Below, piece after piece: positions 10,425-24,422 of a stretch of 36,800 nt of DNA (position 1 is the stretch's first letter; each line of letters opens with the position of its first letter). The notes under the pieces are model-generated. The model saw only the letters and a list, made by a program, of their open reading frames with translations, did not search any database and had not been told where the DNA came from. Both the position numbers and the translations under genes were made by a program. This stretch comes from Actinomycetota bacterium. Its GTDB lineage: Bacteria > Actinomycetota > Thermoleophilia > Solirubrobacterales > JBBDJG01. Location: positions 1 to 36,800 of the forward strand of contig JBKOZI010000104.1 in NCBI GenBank assembly GCA_046725795.1, read 5' to 3'.

Positions 10425-12062
10425 TTGGTCAAGATCAGCGTCATCGTGCCGGTCTACAACCCGGGCGCCAACATCGACGAGTGCCTCTCCTCCCTGCTGG
10501 GGCAGTCGCTCCCGGACGACGAGTACGAGCTGATCTTCGTCGATGATGGTTCGACGGACGAGACGCCCGCGCACCTGGACGAGCTCGCGCGGACGCGCCG
10601 CAACGTCCGCGTCGAACACATTCCCAATTCGGGGTGGCCGGGTCGTCCGCGCAACATCGGCCTCGAGCTCGCGCGGGGCGAATTCGTCTATTTCGTGGAC
10701 AACGACGACTGGCTCGGGCGCCGGGCGCTCGAGCGCCTGTACGCGTCAGCGCTTCGCAACGAATCGGACATCGTGGTCGGCAAGGTCGTCGGGCACGGCA
10801 AGACCGTCTCACGAGCTCTGTTTCAGCGCAACCGGCGAGCGGCGTCGCTCGAGTGGCCTGCCCTCCTCGGGCTCCTGACACCGCACAAGCTCTTCAGGAA
10901 AAGCCTGCTGGACGAGCACCGGATCCGGTTTGAGGAGGGTCCACGCCGGCTCGAGGACCACCTGTTCGTCGTCCATGCCTATTTTCACGCGAGGCGGATC
11001 TCCGTGCTCGCGACCTACCCTTGTTACCACTGGCGAAGAGTGCCGGACGATTCGAACGCGTCATGGAGACGGTTCGACCCCGTGGGTTACCACAACGACC
11101 TGCGCGCCGTGCTCGACCTCGTCGACCGTCACACCGAGCCCGGGCCCTTGCGTGACGGGATGTACGCCCACTGGTACCGAGGCAAGCTGCTCGCGCGCGT
11201 CGGGGGGGAGTCGTTCCTGCGACGCGACCCGGAGTACCGCCGCGCGCTCTACGAGGAGATCCGTCGCCTGACGCTCGAGCGGTACGGGCCCGAGTTCGAC
11301 GCCGCGCTCTCGTTCAAGCACCGCCTGCGCGCGCGCCTTCTTCGCCAGGACGGCTATGAGGCCCTGGAGGCGCTCGCGGAGTTCGAGTCGGGGCTTCGCG
11401 CGGACGTCATGATCCGGCGCCTGCAAGGTGACGGGGAAAGCGTCGGGATCGAGCTGGAGGCCCGCTTGGGTGGCGAGCGTGAGCCGTTCACGGTCCACCG
11501 GCGTGGAGCGCGAATGTACTGGCTCGCGCCCGAGGCGATCCGCAAAGAGCTGCCTGAGGAGGCACTCGACGTGACCAACCAGCGTCCCAGGGGCATCGTG
11601 CAGCTGCCCAGGGGCATGGTGCAGCTGCTCTTGAAATCGACAAGGGATGGGAGCGAGTTCATGGTGCCGACGGCGTCCGAGATCGTGCTCGTGAGCGCTT
11701 CCCCATCCGGGCAGGAGAAGAGACCCGTCGTGATCGCGGCCGCGGACGTCGAGCGCGGCCGCGCCGCCGCCGGGTCGCGACTTCCCCCCGGCGAGTGGGA
11801 AGTCCAAGTGCTCGTGGACGTGGGCGGTATGCGGGCGACCACGAGCATCGTGCATCTACCCGCTCGCTGGCGGTTCGGGCGGCGGCGGCGAAGGACCGGG
11901 ACGCTGACGCTGCTGGCGACCTGGGACGGTCGCCTCCTCCCCCGGCCGCCTTTCAGACGCCGCATCGCCCGGCGGTTCCCGCGAGCCGCGAGCCTCGCCG
12001 AAAGCTTCAGGCGGCGAGGTCGCGGTGCTGTCGAACCCGCAGGCGGGGACGCGGGCGCTTGA
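10425..12062 (+). CDS. Glycosyltransferase family 2 with extended C-terminus (TarS-like architecture)
   Basis: ISVIVPVYN, FVDDGSTD, NSGWPGRPRN, FVDNDD, HKLFRK, LEDHLF. Confidence 0.9.
   Translation: MVKISVIVPVYNPGANIDECLSSLLGQSLPDDEYELIFVDDGSTDETPAHLDELARTRRNVRVEHIPNSGWPGRPRNIGLELARGEFVYFVDNDDWLGRRALERLYASALRNESDIVVGKVVGHGKTVSRALFQRNRRAASLEWPALLGLLTPHKLFRKSLLDEHRIRFEEGPRRLEDHLFVVHAYFHARRISVLATYPCYHWRRVPDDSNASWRRFDPVGYHNDLRAVLDLVDRHTEPGPLRDGMYAHWYRGKLLARVGGESFLRRDPEYRRALYEEIRRLTLERYGPEFDAALSFKHRLRARLLRQDGYEALEALAEFESGLRADVMIRRLQGDGESVGIELEARLGGEREPFTVHRRGARMYWLAPEAIRKELPEEALDVTNQRPRGIVQLPRGMVQLLLKSTRDGSEFMVPTASEIVLVSASPSGQEKRPVVIAAADVERGRAAAGSRLPPGEWEVQVLVDVGGMRATTSIVHLPARWRFGRRRRRTGTLTLLATWDGRLLPRPPFRRRIARRFPRAASLAESFRRRGRGAVEPAGGDAGA
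11586..11627 (+). repeat. In-frame 21-nt tandem duplication (PRGIVQL/PRGMVQL)
   Basis: cccaggggcatcgtgcagctg followed by cccaggggcatggtgcagctg, 20/21 identical. Confidence 0.85.
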
Positions 12063-19801: not shown

Positions 19802-20737
19802 ATGAGCACGGAGACAGACAGCAGCCGCAAGCACCACGGCGTCGCCGCGCTGCGCCGCCCGTGGGGCAGAAGGAACGGCAGGGCTCATCTGACCCGCGAA
19901 GACGAGTTCACCGGCCAGCGGCACGTCTACGAGCCGCACGCCGCGGGATTGCCGCCGCTCCGGTCCTACGTCCGTGAGCTGTGGCGTCGCCGGGAGTTCG
20001 CCCTGGAGCTGTCGCGCACCAGGTTGCGCGCGCAGCACTTCAACACGGTCTTCGGGCAACTCTGGCTGGTGATCAACCCCCTCCTGCTGGCCGGGGTCTA
20101 CTTCGTGCTCGTCGACATCATCCGGCCGAGCTCGCGCGGCCTCGACTTCTTCGCTCACCTGATGGCGGGACTCTTCGCCTACTACTTCGTCTCGAACGCC
20201 TTGCGGGAGGGAGTCAAGTCGGTCGTGAAGGGCGGCCGGCTGATCCTCAACACCGCCTTCCCGCGCGCCCTGCTCCCACTCTCGTCGGTGATCACCTCGT
20301 TCATGCGCTTCGTCCCGACGATCTTCATCTACGCACCGGTGCACCTGATCGCGGGACTACCGGTCGGGCCGCAGCTCCTCTGGGTGCTGCCGCTCGTGGC
20401 GCTCTTCTTCGTGCTTTCGGCCGGCCTCACGATGCTGGTCGCGGCGGGTCAGGTGTACTTCCGTGACCTCGCGAACTTCCTGCCCTACGCGCTGCGGGTC
20501 TGGCTCTACATGTCGCCGATCCTGTACTACGCAAGCGAAGTCCCCGAGCGCTACAAGTGGGTCCTCGACGTGAACCCGATCGCGCCGCTGCTGACCGCAT
20601 GGAGCGACGTGCTGAATGCGGGCCATGCGCCGAACGGCGGCGACCTGGCGCTGGGCGCGGCGTGGGCGTTTGCGCTGTTCATCGCCGGGGCGCTCTTCTT
20701 CACGTCGCGGGAGCGTGAGTTTGCTGTCCGCCTCTGA
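19802..20737 (+). CDS. ABC-2 polysaccharide/teichoic acid exporter permease (TagG/Wzm family)
   Basis: LWRRREF, FGQLWLVINPLL, FPRALLPL, FRDLANF, YMSPILY, VNPIAP; about 6 TMs. Confidence 0.93.
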   Translation: MSTETDSSRKHHGVAALRRPWGRRNGRAHLTREDEFTGQRHVYEPHAAGLPPLRSYVRELWRRREFALELSRTRLRAQHFNTVFGQLWLVINPLLLAGVYFVLVDIIRPSSRGLDFFAHLMAGLFAYYFVSNALREGVKSVVKGGRLILNTAFPRALLPLSSVITSFMRFVPTIFIYAPVHLIAGLPVGPQLLWVLPLVALFFVLSAGLTMLVAAGQVYFRDLANFLPYALRVWLYMSPILYYASEVPERYKWVLDVNPIAPLLTAWSDVLNAGHAPNGGDLALGAAWAFALFIAGALFFTSREREFAVRL

Positions 20738-21503
20738 CCAGCACAGCGTCTGCGTCGAGGACGTCTCGGTCACGTATCGCACGTCGTTCGAGCGTGCGCC
20801 CACGCTGCGGAGCACGATGCTGCGGCTCGGCCGCCGGGAACGCATGGTCCGCGAGATCGAGGCCTTGAAGGGCGTCTCGTTCGACGTGAAGCACGGCACC
20901 GTGCTGGGCGTCATCGGGGCGAACGGCGCCGGCAAGTCGACGCTGGTCCGGACGGTCGCCGGCATCCTGCCTCCGACCACGGGCCGCGTCGAGGTACGCG
21001 GCCGCGTGAGCACCCTGCTTGCGCTCGGCGTGGGGTTCAACCGCGACCTGAGCGGTCGTGACAACGTCGTGCTCGGAGGGCTCGCGGCCGGCCTCACCCG
21101 CGACCAGATGGCGGAGAAGTACGACGAGATCGTCGAGTTCGCCGAGCTCGCCGACTTCATGGACCTGCCGATGCGCACCTACTCGTCGGGCATGTACGGC
21201 AGGCTCGCGTTCTCGGTCGCCGTGAACATGGATCCCGACATCCTGCTGATCGACGAGGCCCTGTCCGTGGGCGACGCGCGCTTCCGCCGCAAGTCCTTCG
21301 AGAAGATGCGCGAGCTCTGCGGCCAGGCGCGGACGATCGTGCTCGTGAGTCATTCGATGGGCAGCATCAGCGAGCTCTGCGACCAGGCGATCTGGATGCA
21401 CGGCGGCGAGATGCGGCTGTGGGACGAGCCCGACGCCGTGATCGAGGCCTACACGAACTTTCTCGACGTCAAGGACGACGCGATTACGCGCGAGGACGTC
21501 TAG
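20715..21503 (+). CDS. ABC polysaccharide/teichoic acid exporter ATPase (TagH/Wzt family, no C-terminal CBM)
   Basis: ALKGVSF, Walker A GANGAGKST, YSSGM signature, ILLIDEALSVGD, VSH. Start is GTG 20715 or TTG 20721. Confidence 0.95.
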   Translation: MSLLSASDQHSVCVEDVSVTYRTSFERAPTLRSTMLRLGRRERMVREIEALKGVSFDVKHGTVLGVIGANGAGKSTLVRTVAGILPPTTGRVEVRGRVSTLLALGVGFNRDLSGRDNVVLGGLAAGLTRDQMAEKYDEIVEFAELADFMDLPMRTYSSGMYGRLAFSVAVNMDPDILLIDEALSVGDARFRRKSFEKMRELCGQARTIVLVSHSMGSISELCDQAIWMHGGEMRLWDEPDAVIEAYTNFLDVKDDAITREDV

Positions 21504-21666
21504 TGGTCCGTCTCGGAACGTTGGCCTCGAAATGGCGAGGGCCGGGCGTCGGCAGGCGAGGACGCAGGAAGCCCGAATACTGGGCAGTATTCGGGCGACC
21601 GAGGACGAAGCATGGCGGCGATCCGGTGCCGCCATTTCAGGTCGAACGTTTCGGGACGGGCCACTA
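21501..21666 (+). mobile_element. 166-nt palindromic hairpin element, copy 1 (MITE / RPE- or ERIC-like architecture)
   Basis: TAGTGGTC...GGCCACTA termini; 38-nt arms (21500-21537/21630-21667, 31/38 complementary); central perfect hairpin gcccgaatactg/cagtattcgggc; TA at both ends. Confidence 0.8.
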
Positions 21667-23133
21667 GGCACCGCAATTCGGCGCGGCGTACACGAGCCAC
21701 GACCCGTTGCCGTACAGCCGGCTGTAGCTCGCTGGAGGCTTGTAGCGAGGAAAGTTCTTCTTGTAGAAGCCGCGGACGTGTGGCACCGACCGCGGTACGA
21801 CCAGCAGGCGGCCAAGCGGGCTGGCGCCGCTCTCGACCGTTCCGACAGAGCCCGGCCGCCCGTCGAGCCAGTACCGCAGGTAGGGGATCGGTCGGTGGTC
21901 CGCCGCCGAGAGCGGAGCGCATGCGGCGAATGCGTCCCGCACCGGTTTCGCCTGGCCGAGTGACCGCAGATCCGCGTACAGCCTCCCGTTGCGCTCGATT
22001 GCCTTGTGAACGCCCTCCAGCATGTCGGCGTGGCGCGGGATAAAGGCGACCGACAGGGCGAGTGCGAACATTCCGGCCGCCAGCCACCGGCGCCGCGCGC
22101 GACCTTCCGGCAGCAGCGCCCAACCGCACACGGCGAGACCGTAGAAGAGCGCCAGCAGAATCGCGGGCGTGCGGAGGTACCTGCCGATCAACGGCAGCCC
22201 GAAGACCGGGCCGATCGCAAACACCGCGGTCATCGCAGCGGCCACGACCACGGGCAGGATCCCCTCACGGCGGCGGTAGAGCCACGCGAACGCCAGCCCG
22301 ATCGGAACGCCGATCACCAGCGGCTCCCGGAGCGTGAACCCGAAGTACTGCGCGGTCCAGTAGGGCACCTGACTGATGTGGCGACGGCGGTCCTGCTCAT
22401 CGGCCAGCGCGGCTGTGCCGTGAAGCGAATGGAGCGCGTCGTGGGCGATCAGAAGATCGCTCAGCATCCACACCGCCGGCGCGGACGCGGCGATCGCGAA
22501 GAACGCGACGCGGGTTCTCGCCGAGACCGCCGGCCACATGTAGAGGACGTACAACCCCGACAGGAACCAGGCCTCAGGACGTAGCAGCCCGGCGACGGCG
22601 AGCACCGCGAGCACCACGGCGCCTCGTCGAGGACGCCGCGCCTCGAGCAGAACCGCGCCGACGATCAGTGCCGCGAACGGGATGTCCTGGTACGCCAGCA
22701 ACGCGTCACGCTCGAGCGCGGGTCGGGTGAACACGACCGCAGCAGCGACCACGCCCGCCCAGGGCGAGAACAGCTGGGCGCCGAGCCGGTAGACGAGCCA
22801 GACGAGCGCACCGAACGAGAGCAGCACGACCCAGGTCATGAGTTGGTCCGACGCAGCGAAGGGATGCACGAGAAAGCTGATCGCGGTCTGCAGCGGATGC
22901 GGAGTGGGCGCGAACGGCGCCCCGTAGTCGGGACGGACGCCGTCCCAGAGGTCGCCTGCCCAGAGCAGCGCATAGCGGGCGTCGTAGTTCAGGTACCAGG
23001 GGTCGTAGACGACACGCAGCAGCACCGCGACCCCCACGATCGTCGCGGCCGGGACCGCGAAGCGCGCGATCGACCGCGGGATCGGCGCGACCGTGGCGGG
23101 CGCGGAGGGCGTGGTCGTGGAGCTAGTGGTCAC
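21664..23133 (-). CDS. Polytopic membrane protein, probable GT-C fold glycosyltransferase (PMT/ArnT-like)
   Basis: First TM followed by loop YLNYDARYALLW, then PTPHPL, AYQDIPF, AGLLRPEAW, GRYL; about 11-13 TMs. Start GTG 23133; ORF is open to 23181. Confidence 0.75.
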   Translation of the reverse strand: MTTSSTTTPSAPATVAPIPRSIARFAVPAATIVGVAVLLRVVYDPWYLNYDARYALLWAGDLWDGVRPDYGAPFAPTPHPLQTAISFLVHPFAASDQLMTWVVLLSFGALVWLVYRLGAQLFSPWAGVVAAAVVFTRPALERDALLAYQDIPFAALIVGAVLLEARRPRRGAVVLAVLAVAGLLRPEAWFLSGLYVLYMWPAVSARTRVAFFAIAASAPAVWMLSDLLIAHDALHSLHGTAALADEQDRRRHISQVPYWTAQYFGFTLREPLVIGVPIGLAFAWLYRRREGILPVVVAAAMTAVFAIGPVFGLPLIGRYLRTPAILLALFYGLAVCGWALLPEGRARRRWLAAGMFALALSVAFIPRHADMLEGVHKAIERNGRLYADLRSLGQAKPVRDAFAACAPLSAADHRPIPYLRYWLDGRPGSVGTVESGASPLGRLLVVPRSVPHVRGFYKKNFPRYKPPASYSRLYGNGSWLVYAAPNCGA

Positions 23134-23289
23134 GGTCGTGAGTACGGTCGTGCTTGGGCGAGCGAGAACCAAGGCTGGCAAGGACGCAGGGAGGTCGCAT
23201 GCCTAAATGGCATGTGACCGACCGAGGACGCCACCAGGTGCCGGTTCGCAGCCGGCCAAGTGCGGGCGTATTTACGATCGGGGCCACTA
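23124..23289 (+). mobile_element. 166-nt palindromic hairpin element, copy 2
   Basis: TAGTGGTC...GGCCACTA termini; 34-nt arms with 25 Watson-Crick + 7 G-U pairs; central hairpin ggtcgcatgcc/ggcatgtgacc; same internal motifs as copy 1. Confidence 0.8.
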
Positions 23290-24384
23290 ACCATCCGGAT
23301 GTCCGAGCGCATCCACGACCGCGCGCGCGACATCCTCGCCGTAGGTGGGGCCCATTGGGAGCGCGAGGTTCGTGGCGGCCGCCTCCTCCGTGCCCGGGAG
23401 CTCGGCGCCCTTGGCGTACGGCTCCATCCCAGGCTGCCGATGGACGGGAACGCGGTAGTAGCTGCGTGCTTCGACGCCCGCATCCCGGAGGCGGCGCGCC
23501 AGCGCGTCGGGGGCCTCGGCCCGCGTCACGTAGAGATGGTGCACCGGCTCAGTGCCGCCCGGTACGCGAGGTAGGTCGACGTGCCGATCCAGACCCGCTT
23601 GCGTGTAAGCCGCGGCAAGGGCACGGCGGGCCGCGTTGAGGGCGTCGAGCCGCGGAAGCACGGCTCGCAGAACCGTGGCCTGGATCGCGTCGAGCCGCGA
23701 GTTGAAGCCGATTGCGCTGAACCTGTCCTTGTCACGCGAGCCGTGCGCGTGCAGGAGCCTCGCCTTCGCCGCCACCTCCTCGTCGTCGGTTGCGATCGCT
23801 CCTCCGTCGCCGAGGCAGAAGAGGTTCTTGGATGGAAAGAAGCTGAACATCGCTGCATCGCCGAGCGCGCCGGCCCTGCGTCCGTGCAGGGAGGCACCCG
23901 CCGCCTGCGCGGCGTCCTCGAGCACGGCGATCCCTCGCTCGCGCGCGAACGGGACGATCTCGTCGAGCGGCGCGGGCGTCCCGAACAGGTGCACGGCGAC
24001 GATCGCCTTGGTGGCCGGCGTGACCGCCCGCTCGACGGTCTCGCGGGTGATGCAAAATGTCTCGGGATCGACATCGCAGAAGACCGGCCGTGCGCCGGTG
24101 TGCGGGATTGCCTCGGCGCTCGCATAGAACGTGAACGACGGCACGAGTACGTCGTCGCCCGGTCCAACACCCAGCGCGAGCAGCGCGATCGTGAGGGCGT
24201 CCGTGCCGTTACCCACGCCCACCACGTGCTCTACGCCCAGGTAGGCGGCGAGCTCGCGCTCGAACGCCTGGACCTCCGGCCCCAGGATGAAACGGCCGGA
24301 CTCGACCACGGCGGCGATCCGGCTCTTCAGCTCGGGCTGCAGCTCCCTCAAAACCTCGCGGGTGTCGAACAGGGGAATCCGCAC
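23287..24384 (-). CDS. DegT/DnrJ/EryC1/StrS family PLP-dependent sugar aminotransferase
   Basis: FILGPEV, GNGTDAL, VHLFG, EDAAQA, FSFFPSKNL (PLP lysine), GDGG, GFNSRLD. Start GTG 24384 (MRIPLFD) or 24393. Confidence 0.95.
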   Translation of the reverse strand: MRIPLFDTREVLRELQPELKSRIAAVVESGRFILGPEVQAFERELAAYLGVEHVVGVGNGTDALTIALLALGVGPGDDVLVPSFTFYASAEAIPHTGARPVFCDVDPETFCITRETVERAVTPATKAIVAVHLFGTPAPLDEIVPFARERGIAVLEDAAQAAGASLHGRRAGALGDAAMFSFFPSKNLFCLGDGGAIATDDEEVAAKARLLHAHGSRDKDRFSAIGFNSRLDAIQATVLRAVLPRLDALNAARRALAAAYTQAGLDRHVDLPRVPGGTEPVHHLYVTRAEAPDALARRLRDAGVEARSYYRVPVHRQPGMEPYAKGAELPGTEEAAATNLALPMGPTYGEDVARAVVDALGHPDG

Positions 24385-24422
24385 GACGGTCACGCTACCC
24401 TGCCGTTCAGCACGGACGGCCC

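What the first reader, a model, noticed from the sequence alone, without database searches (positions are those of the whole stretch)
21501..23289. Two 166-nt hairpin elements with identical architecture but fully covaried stems bracket a GT-C gene: candidate new family of structured mobile RNA/ssDNA elements
Seen: copy 1 (21501-21666) and copy 2 (23124-23289) are both exactly 166 nt and in the same orientation. Both begin TAGTGGTC and end GGGCCACTA. Both carry GGC(G/A)AGGACGCAGG(A/G)A before a central hairpin (21555-70; 23177-92) and GACCGAGGACG right after it at the identical offset (21597-607; 23220-230). The long arms and central hairpins differ almost entirely in sequence between copies, yet each pairs. 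Arm mismatches are mostly G-U on the + strand (4 of 7 in copy 1, 7 of 9 in copy 2). This pattern points to selection on a single-stranded fold with a conserved purine-rich internal loop, not on a dsDNA transposase-binding TIR. The layout recalls Rickettsia palindromic elements and ERIC, whose mobilisation is poorly understood. No transposase is in the window. Inference: a non-autonomous structured element family that targets TAG stop codons and may be bound by a protein at the internal loop. The pair could also mobilise the enclosed gene as a cassette.
Basis: partly seen in the sequence, partly recalled or inferred. Interest (0 to 1): 0.88.

Follow-up and report, generated by a model that had tools for sequence, protein, structure and literature searches.

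The report
Hairpin mobile repeats at stop codons
The two 166-base hairpins are recent insertions of a large family of small mobile repeats, found in a class of soil bacteria, that land on stop codons and carry a conserved core which folds on one DNA strand only and whose role is unknown.

Summary
Both 166-nt copies fold into long hairpins (z about -11). They belong to a family with 34 covariance-model hits in this 2.0-Mb, 58%-complete genome. The family occurs in 74 of 151 sampled genomes of the class (related MAGs are labelled Thermoleophilia).

Two same-genus genomes have the same gene order without either hairpin, so both copies are recent insertions at (C)TAG. The flanked gene is resident, not a cassette. 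The element ends (TA|G...C|TA) rebuild TAG stops on both sides.

A sister subfamily shares its terminal 14-17 nt with a 1-kb IS982-family insertion sequence, so the family behaves like foldback MITEs. No partner IS was found for the window's own two subfamilies, and several hairpin-rich genomes lack such a transposase.

Three features are unusual:
- The GA-rich core (AGGACGCAGG, covarying hairpin, CGAGGACG) is conserved while the arms vary.
- Arm mismatches are G:T on the core-bearing strand far more often than A:C (746:59 in long forms). That strand folds better in 83 of 84 elements.
- In three complete chromosomes, 77 of 103 copies have the folding strand on the leading-strand template, antisense to co-directional genes.

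There is no Rfam match, and five literature searches found no description. Function and mobilising enzyme remain inferred.

The parts
21501..21666 (+). Hairpin element copy 1 (long form, 166 nt, TAGTGGTCC-type arms). It lies between two convergent genes.
   Evidence: Sequence. Fold -115.1 kcal/mol, z -11.2. CM hit at 81.4 bits. Absent from the syntenic site in G002 and G001. Copies 97-98% identical occur on contigs C147 and C88.
21559..21607 (+). Conserved core of copy 1: 5' box AGGACGCAGG (21559-21568), apical covarying hairpin (21571-21596) and 3' box CGAGGACG (21600-21607).
   Evidence: The box columns are invariant in 65 sequences, and all 10 apical-stem pairs show compensatory changes.
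23124..23289 (+). Hairpin element copy 2 (long form, 166 nt, TAGTGGTCAC-type arms). It lies between two genes on the minus strand and is antisense to both.
   Evidence: Sequence. Fold -103.3 kcal/mol, z -10.6. CM hit at 90.8 bits. Absent from the syntenic site in G002 and G001. Relatives at 85-88% identity on C3 and C142.
23181..23230 (+). Conserved core of copy 2: 5' box (23181-23190), apical hairpin (23193-23219) and 3' box (23223-23230).
20715..21503 (+). ABC-transporter ATPase gene. Its TAG stop (21501-21503) is the TA at the junction plus the first base of copy 1.
   Evidence: ORF end. PF00005, E = 3.6e-20.
21664..23133 (-). Its stop (21664-21666) is the last base of copy 1 plus TA. Its likely start, GTG at 23131-23133, lies in the terminus of copy 2.
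   Evidence: ORF table and home-made gene caller. No Pfam or NCBIfam hit. Orthologues at 77% identity in G001 and G002 without hairpins. The start-codon reading is inference.
23287..24393 (-). DegT/DnrJ/EryC1-type aminotransferase gene. Its stop (23287-23289) is the last base of copy 2 plus TA.
   Evidence: ORF end. PF01041, E = 8.8e-108.

Best explanation
The two hairpins are independent, fairly recent insertions of two subfamilies of one large family of non-autonomous foldback mobile elements (MITE-like). The family is spread through a class of Actinomycetota; related MAGs are labelled Thermoleophilia.

Shown:
- The whole 166-nt unit inserts at the TA of a (C)TAG site.
- Because the element starts with G and ends with C, TA+G rebuilds a TAG stop on each side. 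This lets the element sit on stop codons and in tight gene junctions. Copy 1 now carries the stops of both convergent genes. Copy 2 carries the stop of the aminotransferase gene.
- The interior is a conserved module of about 100 nt: helices with compensatory changes, and invariant purine-rich boxes facing each other across small internal loops.
- Pairing is preserved on the box-bearing strand only.

Inferred:
- Copy 2 split an overlapping stop/start junction and supplies an in-frame GTG.
- Mobilisation is in trans by a DDE transposase of the IS982-family kind. Its (C)TAG-flanked inverted repeats are carried by a sister subfamily, but the partner of the window's own subfamilies was not found.
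- The module works in single-stranded form during propagation. I favour a folded top-strand DNA at the replication fork (about 0.4) over an RNA (about 0.3). It would serve as a docking platform for the transposase or a host protein.
- The 3:1 excess of copies with the strong-folding strand on the leading-strand template, antisense to co-directional genes, reflects survival of 'parked' copies. In these copies the exposed or transcribed strand is the weaker hairpin.
For: Family and mobility:
- 28 exact core matches and 34 CM hits in the own genome.
- Present in 26 of 41 relatives and in 74 of 151 class genomes.
- Both window sites are empty in G002 and G001. G002 reads ...ctgTAGggc and ...gagCTAGcca.
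- A short-form site is empty in G232.

Stop codons:
- ORF ends fall at 21503, 21664 and 23287.
- Across 84 elements, 18 of 34 inward-reading left genes end within -5..+1 nt of the element end, and 40 of 58 inward-reading right genes end within -7..+2 nt.

IS link:
- A 985-1015-bp IS with CTAGATGATTGATTCCACG-type repeats encodes a 289-aa protein. It scores 158 bits on NF033520, IS982 family, cut-off 130.
- Hairpins with that terminus at both ends (up to 4 mismatches in 18): 6 in G000, 11 in G043 and 7 in G045.

Structure:
- 19 of 21 predicted pairs show compensatory changes.
- 89.6% of cells are paired against 66.7% in shuffles and 27-38% in slid controls. There are 370 double-change cells against 123.

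Strand polarity:
- G:T-type against A:C-type arm mismatches are 746:59 in long forms and 53:18 in short forms. The outer 24 nt give 208:22 and the inner arm 183:25.
- The box-bearing strand is the more stable in 83 of 84 elements with RNA parameters and 82 of 84 with DNA parameters.
- In 41 nearest-relative pairs, shared mismatches are 193:13 and private ones 127:30, with 42 compensated pairs. The stronger bias in inherited changes points to selection during propagation.

Orientation:
- 120 elements with close neighbours split as antisense tandem 62, convergent 32, sense tandem 21, divergent 5.
- With replichores set a priori from dnaA and its antipode, 77 of 103 copies have the folding strand on the leading-strand template, p = 5e-7.
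Against: - No IS with CTAGTGG-type ends was found in any locus examined.
- No DDE_Tnp_1, DDE_3 or IS982-family match occurs in the own genome, which is only 58% complete.
- The complete chromosome G043 has 41 hairpins but only one DDE_Tnp_1 gene (465 aa, ends not of the CTAG type). It has no DDE_Tnp_1_2 match and no IS982-family match as G007, the same genome.
- Distributions are discordant. The IS-like protein is in 35 of 201 class genomes (f8 14/35, f9 5/32). The hairpin is in f9 22/23 and f8 1/25.
- No copies above 97.7% identity exist within any genome examined, so there is no sign of current activity.
- The element interior shows no similarity to the IS.
- A variable terminus with a conserved centre is the reverse of an ordinary MITE.
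- DDE transposases are not known to need single strands (recalled).
- The orientation bias cannot be assigned to replication. Head-on tandem contexts give 8:9 and convergent contexts 12:6, not significant.
- No expression data are available.
Confidence: 0.6

Rival explanations
1. The conserved module is first of all a structured RNA, either a cis-acting 3'-UTR or intergenic element or a small RNA. The host, or the element, selects it as RNA. Possible roles are a direction-dependent terminator or insulator, a processing or stability signal, or a protein-binding RNA. The mobile arms only spread it.
For: - Covarying helices with G:U tolerated, and invariant purine-rich internal loops.
- All copies lie within transcription units, at most 200 nt from genes.
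- The RNA of the box-bearing strand folds on average 22 kcal/mol better than its complement. The two directions of transcription therefore see different structures.
- In G044 the core is much better conserved than the outer stems: 11% divergence against 37-40%.
Against: - In tandem gene contexts the box-bearing strand is antisense to the genes in 62 of 83 cases. The well-folding RNA would usually need its own promoter.
- No promoter-like or terminator-like consensus was found at the window copies.
- No Rfam family matches.
- The polarity bias is stronger in inherited than in private changes, which fits selection at propagation better than selection at each locus.
- No RNA data are available.
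Confidence: 0.27
2. A REP/REPIN-like system: the hairpin is moved as single-stranded DNA by an HUH (Y1, RAYT or IS200/IS605-type) transposase. The enzyme recognises the folded core and cuts next to TA.
For: - Strand-specific fold.
- Orientation linked to the replichore, flipping at dnaA in G045 and G044.
- Termini vary while the structure is kept. The single TA at empty sites fits insertion next to a short target just as well.
Against: - No Y1_Tnp match in the own genome or in 5 complete chromosomes holding 8-41 copies each.
- The folding strand lies mostly on the leading-strand template. From recall, IS608-type elements are reported in the opposite arrangement.
- A sister subfamily carries the ends of a DDE-type IS.
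Confidence: 0.06
3. The pair of direct-oriented copies forms a composite unit that brought in the enclosed gene as a cassette.
For: Two same-orientation copies bracket one gene.
Against: - The gene and both neighbours sit in the same order in G002 and G001 at 76-85% identity with neither hairpin.
- The two copies belong to different subfamilies: 93 of 167 columns are identical.
Confidence: 0.01

Closest known systems
IS982-family-derived MITEs (for example the Cardinium MITE derived from ISCca4; PMC9769881, passages read)
   Same: Short non-coding repeats flanked by the inverted repeats of an IS982-family IS and assumed to be moved in trans. Here one subfamily carries the terminal 14-17 nt of such an IS.
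   Different: - The Cardinium MITE is described as derived from the parental IS ends. Here the interior is unrelated to the IS.
- Here the interior is conserved across subfamilies with different termini and folds on one strand only.
- Here most hairpin-rich genomes lack the IS.
Correia elements of Neisseria and RUP of Streptococcus (recalled, no paper read)
   Same: Foldback repeats of 100-170 bp with terminal inverted repeats, insertion at TA with TA at both ends, location next to genes, long hairpins once transcribed.
   Different: As recalled, those families keep their termini and have no known strand-specific covarying core. Here the termini vary, the centre is conserved and the polarity is about 12:1.
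ERIC/IRU and related enterobacterial repeat units (recalled; PMC2759123 seen only in a search listing)
   Same: Imperfect palindromes of about 127-168 bp, intergenic, with a conserved central part, both orientations and an unknown mobilising enzyme.
   Different: Different phylum and sequence. Here empty sites, TA/(C)TAG ends, an IS link for one subfamily and a replichore-linked orientation are shown.
REP/REPIN with RAYT (PMC2817692 seen only in a search listing; the rest recalled)
   Same: Hairpin-forming dispersed repeats whose single-stranded fold matters.
   Different: No Y1 transposase was found in 6 of 6 genomes searched.
MIRU of mycobacteria (recalled)
   Same: Intergenic repeats in operons whose ends overlap the stop and start codons of flanking genes. 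Copy 2 likewise sits in a stop/start junction.
   Different: MIRUs are tandem direct repeats, not foldback hairpins.

Membership tests
MITE (non-autonomous DDE-type element) | Small, no coding capacity, many dispersed copies | tested here: met
   166 nt. 34 CM hits on separate contigs. Short (about 100-112 nt) and long (about 162-170 nt) classes.
MITE (non-autonomous DDE-type element) | Insertion polymorphism with a short duplicated target | tested here: met
   Both window sites are empty in G002 and G001. One TA/TAG at the empty site, one at each end of the filled site. The length of the duplication (TA or up to CTAG) is not resolved.
MITE (non-autonomous DDE-type element) | Terminal inverted repeats shared with an autonomous IS | tested here: inconclusive
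   Met for the CTAGATG-type sister subfamily. Not met for the window's CTAGTGG-type copies: none of the IS loci examined has such ends.
MITE (non-autonomous DDE-type element) | Matching transposase present in the same genome | tested here: not met
   - G000: none, but only 58% complete.
- Complete G043, 41 copies: no IS982-like gene.
- G045 does have 2 IS copies.
REP/REPIN-RAYT | Y1 (HUH) transposase gene in the genome | tested here: not met
   PF01797: 0 of 1 and 0 of 5 complete chromosomes. The control genomes do give matches.
Described structured RNA family (Rfam 15) | Match to a curated covariance model | tested here: not met
   No hit at gathering score in the window. Nothing on the elements at E up to 10.
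Structured RNA in general | Covariation supporting a fold | tested here: met
   The sequences are related, so the shuffle counts are not probabilities.
Structured RNA in general | Transcript of the folding strand | not testable with these tools
   No RNA run holds the stretch.
IS982 family (for the partner IS, not the hairpin) | Transposase above the curated cut-off of NF033520 | tested here: met
   158.1 bits against a cut-off of 130. About 1 kb with inverted repeats.
Composite transposon / gene cassette | The enclosed gene moves with the flanking repeats | tested here: not met
   The gene is resident at the same locus without repeats in two congeners.

The most novel reading that the evidence does not exclude
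The conserved GA-rich module is the real mobile or selected unit. It would be a strand-specific folded nucleic acid (ssDNA at the fork, or RNA) recognised by an as yet unidentified protein. It would exchange or regrow its terminal stems, now and then acquiring the ends of IS982-type insertion sequences. That would make it a structure-defined rather than sequence-defined class of bacterial mobile element. Its genomic orientation would be set by replication.
Probability: 0.2. Interest if true: 0.8.

Novelty: new variant of a known kind. Interest (0 to 1): 0.6.

Why it matters
Small palindromic repeats such as ERIC and Correia are common, yet how they move and why they persist is mostly unknown. 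This family offers unusually clean handles:
- dated empty sites;
- a candidate parental IS for one subfamily;
- a conserved core with strong covariation;
- a roughly 12:1 strand polarity of tolerated mismatches;
- a replichore- or gene-linked orientation.

Together these make the question 'is the active form single-stranded, and is it DNA or RNA?' directly testable. The family also matters for annotating Thermoleophilia MAGs. The elements supply stop and start codons, they sit at contig ends in some short-read assemblies, and they could be mistaken for terminators or sRNA genes.

Tried and rejected
Searches that gave nothing:
- Rfam at gathering score and at E up to 10: nothing on the elements.
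- Promoter and terminator consensus scan over 21300-23500: 0 sites.
- RNA evidence: no RNA holder listed.
- Laying 4 soil or rhizosphere DNA runs gave only short low-depth contigs. Some bridge the junctions of copy 2. No contig joins across either element.
- Five literature searches found no description of this family.
- No supplements were consulted. Repeat catalogues in supplementary files could still list the family.

Hypotheses rejected:
- Chance.
- Cassette or composite transposon.
- Insertion into pre-existing terminator hairpins. The empty sites in G002 and G232 show no hairpin.
- Mutational bias as the cause of the polarity. Deamination of the exposed strand would give the opposite sign, and the polarity follows the element, not its context: 83 of 84 (inference).
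- In-place selection alone, for the same reason.
- My first label of IS5 family. NCBIfam places the transposase in IS982.
- DDE_3 (IS630-type) in the own genome: none.
- The Myxococcaceae- and Amycolatopsis-labelled pattern hits are chance. L043 scores 16 bits and L072 has no CM hit.

Analyses that failed or stayed weak:
- Using the local gene majority as a proxy for replication direction gave no signal in convergent contexts: 7 of 17.
- The first gene caller, based on GC3 thresholds, was too crude. A codon log-odds caller replaced it. All gene-context counts rest on that home-made caller.
- Three scripts were flawed and are not used: fuzzy box matching mis-registered and an ungapped arm register failed.
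- Searches failed on input format and were redone.
Full report
**1. Observation**

The sequence is as described. Copy 1 is 21501-21666 and copy 2 is 23124-23289. Each is 166 nt and both lie in the same orientation. Both begin TAGTGGTC and end GGGCCACTA. The two purine-rich boxes sit at identical offsets on either side of a central hairpin (2 matches in the window, 0 in 100 shuffles).

Each copy folds into an almost complete hairpin. MFE is -115.1 and -103.3 kcal/mol, z is -11.2 and -10.6, and none of 200 shuffles folds as well. The copies share 93 of 167 aligned columns, so the arms differ a lot but not 'almost entirely'. The reverse strands fold much less well, at -80.5 and -68.8 kcal/mol.

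**2. A large family**

- The core pattern AGGACGCAGG-N20-40-CGAGGACG occurs 28 times in the window's genome. That genome is 2.02 Mb in 151 contigs and 58.6% complete. The reversed control pattern occurs 0 times.
- I built a covariance model (R1: 117 positions, 21 pairs) from 65 diverse core regions. It finds 34 copies in the own genome.
- The exact pattern occurs in 26 of 41 genomes, the own one included, with up to 34 matches each.
- R1 hits 74 of 151 genomes sampled across the class. The scored count per genome was capped at 24, and presence by family is patchy.
- In a phylum-wide sample, matches outside the class come from one further family only: f14, 6 of 10 genomes. Three of those six are unpublished genomes.
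Nearly all are MAGs labelled Solirubrobacterales, Gaiellaceae, Thermoleophilaceae or Thermoleophilia, with a few labelled Acidimicrobiia.
- The Acidimicrobiia-labelled hits are true model matches at 47-64 bits. The Myxococcaceae- and Amycolatopsis-labelled hits are not.
- Rfam 15 has no match. Five literature searches found no description.

**3. Anatomy**

Elements come in two size classes:
- a short form of about 100-112 nt;
- a long form of about 162-170 nt, to which both window copies belong;
- some long forms carry an extra insert of about 40 nt just 3' of the core.

Counts among elements found by the exact pattern:

| Source | Long | Long + insert | Short |
|---|---|---|---|
| G000 (own genome) | 23 | 5 | 0 |
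| G043 | 39 | 1 | 1 |
| G045 | 23 | 1 | 14 |
| G044 | 0 | 0 | 19 |

All share the inner module. The boxes AGGACGC.GG and GAGGAC are invariant in 65 sequences. They face each other across small purine-rich internal loops. The apical stem and the helices below the boxes covary.

- 19 of 21 predicted pairs have compensatory changes.
- On a 24-pair structure, 89.6% of cells pair. Column shuffles give 66.7% (0 of 500 reach the observed value) and slid partners give 27-38%.
- There are 370 double-change cells against an expected 123.
- These sequences are related to one another, so the shuffle counts are not true probabilities.

The outer arms differ between subfamilies but are self-complementary in each.

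**4. Mobility and target**

The same-genus genomes G002 and G001 hold the same three genes in the same order at 76-85% identity. The genes are the ABC ATPase, the 489-aa membrane protein and the DegT-type aminotransferase. Neither genome has either hairpin.

In G002 the empty sites read ...ctgTAGggc... and ...gagCTAGcca.... In the window the 166 nt lie between a (C)TA and a TA(G/A). One TA or TAG therefore became two. The palindromic nature of TA and CTAG leaves the length of the duplication open.

Two short-form copies of G044 are likewise missing from G232, which is 86-92% identical in the flanks. The one empty site I read there shows no pre-existing hairpin.

The enclosed gene is therefore resident. 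The two copies are separate insertions of different subfamilies, so the cassette idea fails.

Within a genome no two copies are more than 97.7% identical. Deletion derivatives lacking the core also exist. The family looks old and is not evidently active now.

**5. Stop codons**

Because elements read TA|G...C|TA, each end rebuilds TAG.

- Copy 1 carries the stops of both convergent genes (ORF ends 21503 and 21664).
- Copy 2 carries the stop of the aminotransferase gene (23287).
- In G002 that gene's stop overlaps an ATG in the other frame. I read this by eye as the start of the membrane gene.
- In the window the element separates that ATG from the gene body. An in-frame GTG at 23131-23133, inside the element's end, is the caller's start. 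This start-codon reading is inference.

Across 84 elements, 18 of 34 left genes that read inward end within -5..+1 nt of the element end. The same holds for 40 of 58 right genes, within -7..+2 nt. These figures rest on a home-made codon log-odds gene caller.

**6. Link to an insertion sequence**

Related genomes carry an IS of about 1 kb (985-1015 bp). Its inverted repeats are of the type CTAGATGATTGATTCCACG, and it is flanked by CTAG on both sides. Its 289-aa product scores 158 bits on NCBIfam NF033520, IS982 family, against a cut-off of 130. Pfam sees only DDE_Tnp_1.

One hairpin subfamily has these terminal 14-17 nt. With up to 4 mismatches in 18 at both ends, that applies to 6 elements in G000, 11 in G043 and 7 in G045. 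IS982-derived MITEs are known elsewhere (PMC9769881; passages read).

Four results weaken the link:
- The hairpin interior is unrelated to the IS.
- No IS with CTAGTGG-type ends, the type of both window copies, was seen.
- The complete chromosome G043 has 41 hairpins and no such transposase.
- Across the class the two distributions disagree. The IS-like protein is in 35 of 201 genomes (f8 14/35, f9 5/32). The hairpins are in f9 22/23 and f8 1/25.

Y1/HUH transposases were not found: 0 of 1 and 0 of 5 genomes.

**7. Strand polarity**

I aligned each 5' arm with the reverse complement of its 3' arm.

| Set | G:T on box strand | A:C on box strand |
|---|---|---|
| Long forms | 746 | 59 |
| Short forms | 53 | 18 |
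| Outer 24 nt | 208 | 22 |
| Inner arm | 183 | 25 |

The box-bearing strand is the more stable fold in 83 of 84 elements with RNA parameters. Mean MFE is -113.4 against -91.1 kcal/mol. With DNA parameters the figure is 82 of 84.

The sign follows the element and not its surroundings. It is also opposite to what deamination of the exposed strand would give. I therefore read it as selection on the single-stranded fold of that strand.

Among 41 nearest-relative pairs:
- mismatches shared by both copies are 193 G:T-type to 13 A:C-type;
- mismatches private to one copy are 127 to 30;
- 42 pairs are fully compensated.

The stronger bias in inherited changes suggests that the filter acts when elements propagate. 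This is inference.

**8. Orientation**

Of 120 elements with both neighbours within 200 nt, 62 lie between tandem genes antisense to them. A further 21 lie between tandem genes in sense, 32 between convergent genes and 5 between divergent genes.

In three complete chromosomes the strand of the copies runs in long blocks. It flips at dnaA in G045 and G044. I set replichores a priori from dnaA and its antipode. On that basis 77 of 103 copies have the folding strand on the leading-strand template (p = 5e-7).

| Context | On leading-strand template | On lagging-strand template |
|---|---|---|
| Co-directional tandem | 50 | 10 |
| Head-on tandem | 8 | 9 |
| Convergent (not significant) | 12 | 6 |

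Replication and transcription therefore cannot be separated with these data.

Either way, the strand that is exposed or transcribed most is usually the weaker hairpin. That fits preferential loss, or excision, of copies in the other orientation. From recall, palindromes are known to be deleted more readily when the stable hairpin lies on the lagging-strand template.

**9. Reading and verdict**

The finding is a real, previously undescribed family of foldback mobile repeats. In target, ends and the IS link of one subfamily it behaves like a MITE. It departs from ordinary MITEs in three ways: a conserved, strand-specific structured core; variable termini; and biased orientation.

I commit to mobilisation in trans by a DDE transposase of the IS982 kind. 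I also commit to the core acting in single-stranded form during propagation, with folded DNA somewhat more likely than RNA. Both steps are inferred.

The RNA-element rival keeps about a quarter of the probability. The HUH and cassette readings are disfavoured or refuted.

Noticed in passing
G000 contigs C10:19797-20000, C100, C117, C140, C30, C70, C139 (own genome, outside the window): Some long-form copies carry an extra insert of about 40 nt directly 3' of the CGAGGACG box. The insert is made of two small GC-rich hairpins and brings the element to about 200-212 nt. It occurs in 5 of 28 elements in G000, 8 in the public loci and 1 each in G043 and G045. It may be a nested mini-palindrome or an accessory arm.
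   Followed up: partly
G000 C127:8965-9014, C112:21459-21496, C22:3513-3536, C3:3797-3852, C3:33813-33835: Derivatives retain only the outer arms, so the core is deleted and a hairpin of about 50 nt remains, or retain only one arm. They look like hairpin-mediated internal deletions.
   Followed up: partly
window 23287-23294 and the matching site in L255 (G002): In G002 the aminotransferase stop and the next gene's ATG appear to overlap (ATGnnTAG type). In the window the element sits inside that junction, and a GTG in its terminus is in frame with the downstream gene. This was read by eye.
   Followed up: partly
L208:1087-2090, L210:973-1969, L204:1411-2405, L211:666-1648, L221:1413-2392: Two IS types of about 1 kb, both flanked by CTAG on each side, recur across the class. 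Some genomes hold many copies, for example 8 and 5 in G044. The first type (L208) scores as IS982 family. The second type (L211, L221) was matched by the same NCBIfam model in genome searches.
   Followed up: partly
G044 loci L184-L201: In G044 all copies are short forms. Their cores are nearly identical but their outer stems are 37-40% diverged between nearest relatives. Many outer stems begin CTGAG or CTGAC and end CTCAG or GTCAG, which are TGA-type ends instead of TAG. About half of the copies show a GC-rich similarity just 5' of the stem.
   Followed up: partly
G014 and G013 contig ends (listing): Many core matches lie within the first 20-110 nt of contigs, so the repeats seem to break short-read assemblies.
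   Followed up: no
window 19802-24393: The neighbourhood looks like a cell-envelope glycan locus: an ABC-2 permease (19802-20737), an ABC ATPase, a large membrane protein of no recognised family, and a DegT-type sugar aminotransferase.
   Followed up: partly
window 10564-10675, 11707-11791, 20563-20710: Three other imperfect inverted repeats, 70-72% complementary, were listed by the repeat finder. None was examined.
   Followed up: no
G000 C3:54320-54345: Just upstream of the C3 copy, a 13-nt stretch repeats the element's own 3' end. It may be the remnant of an adjacent or earlier copy.
   Followed up: no
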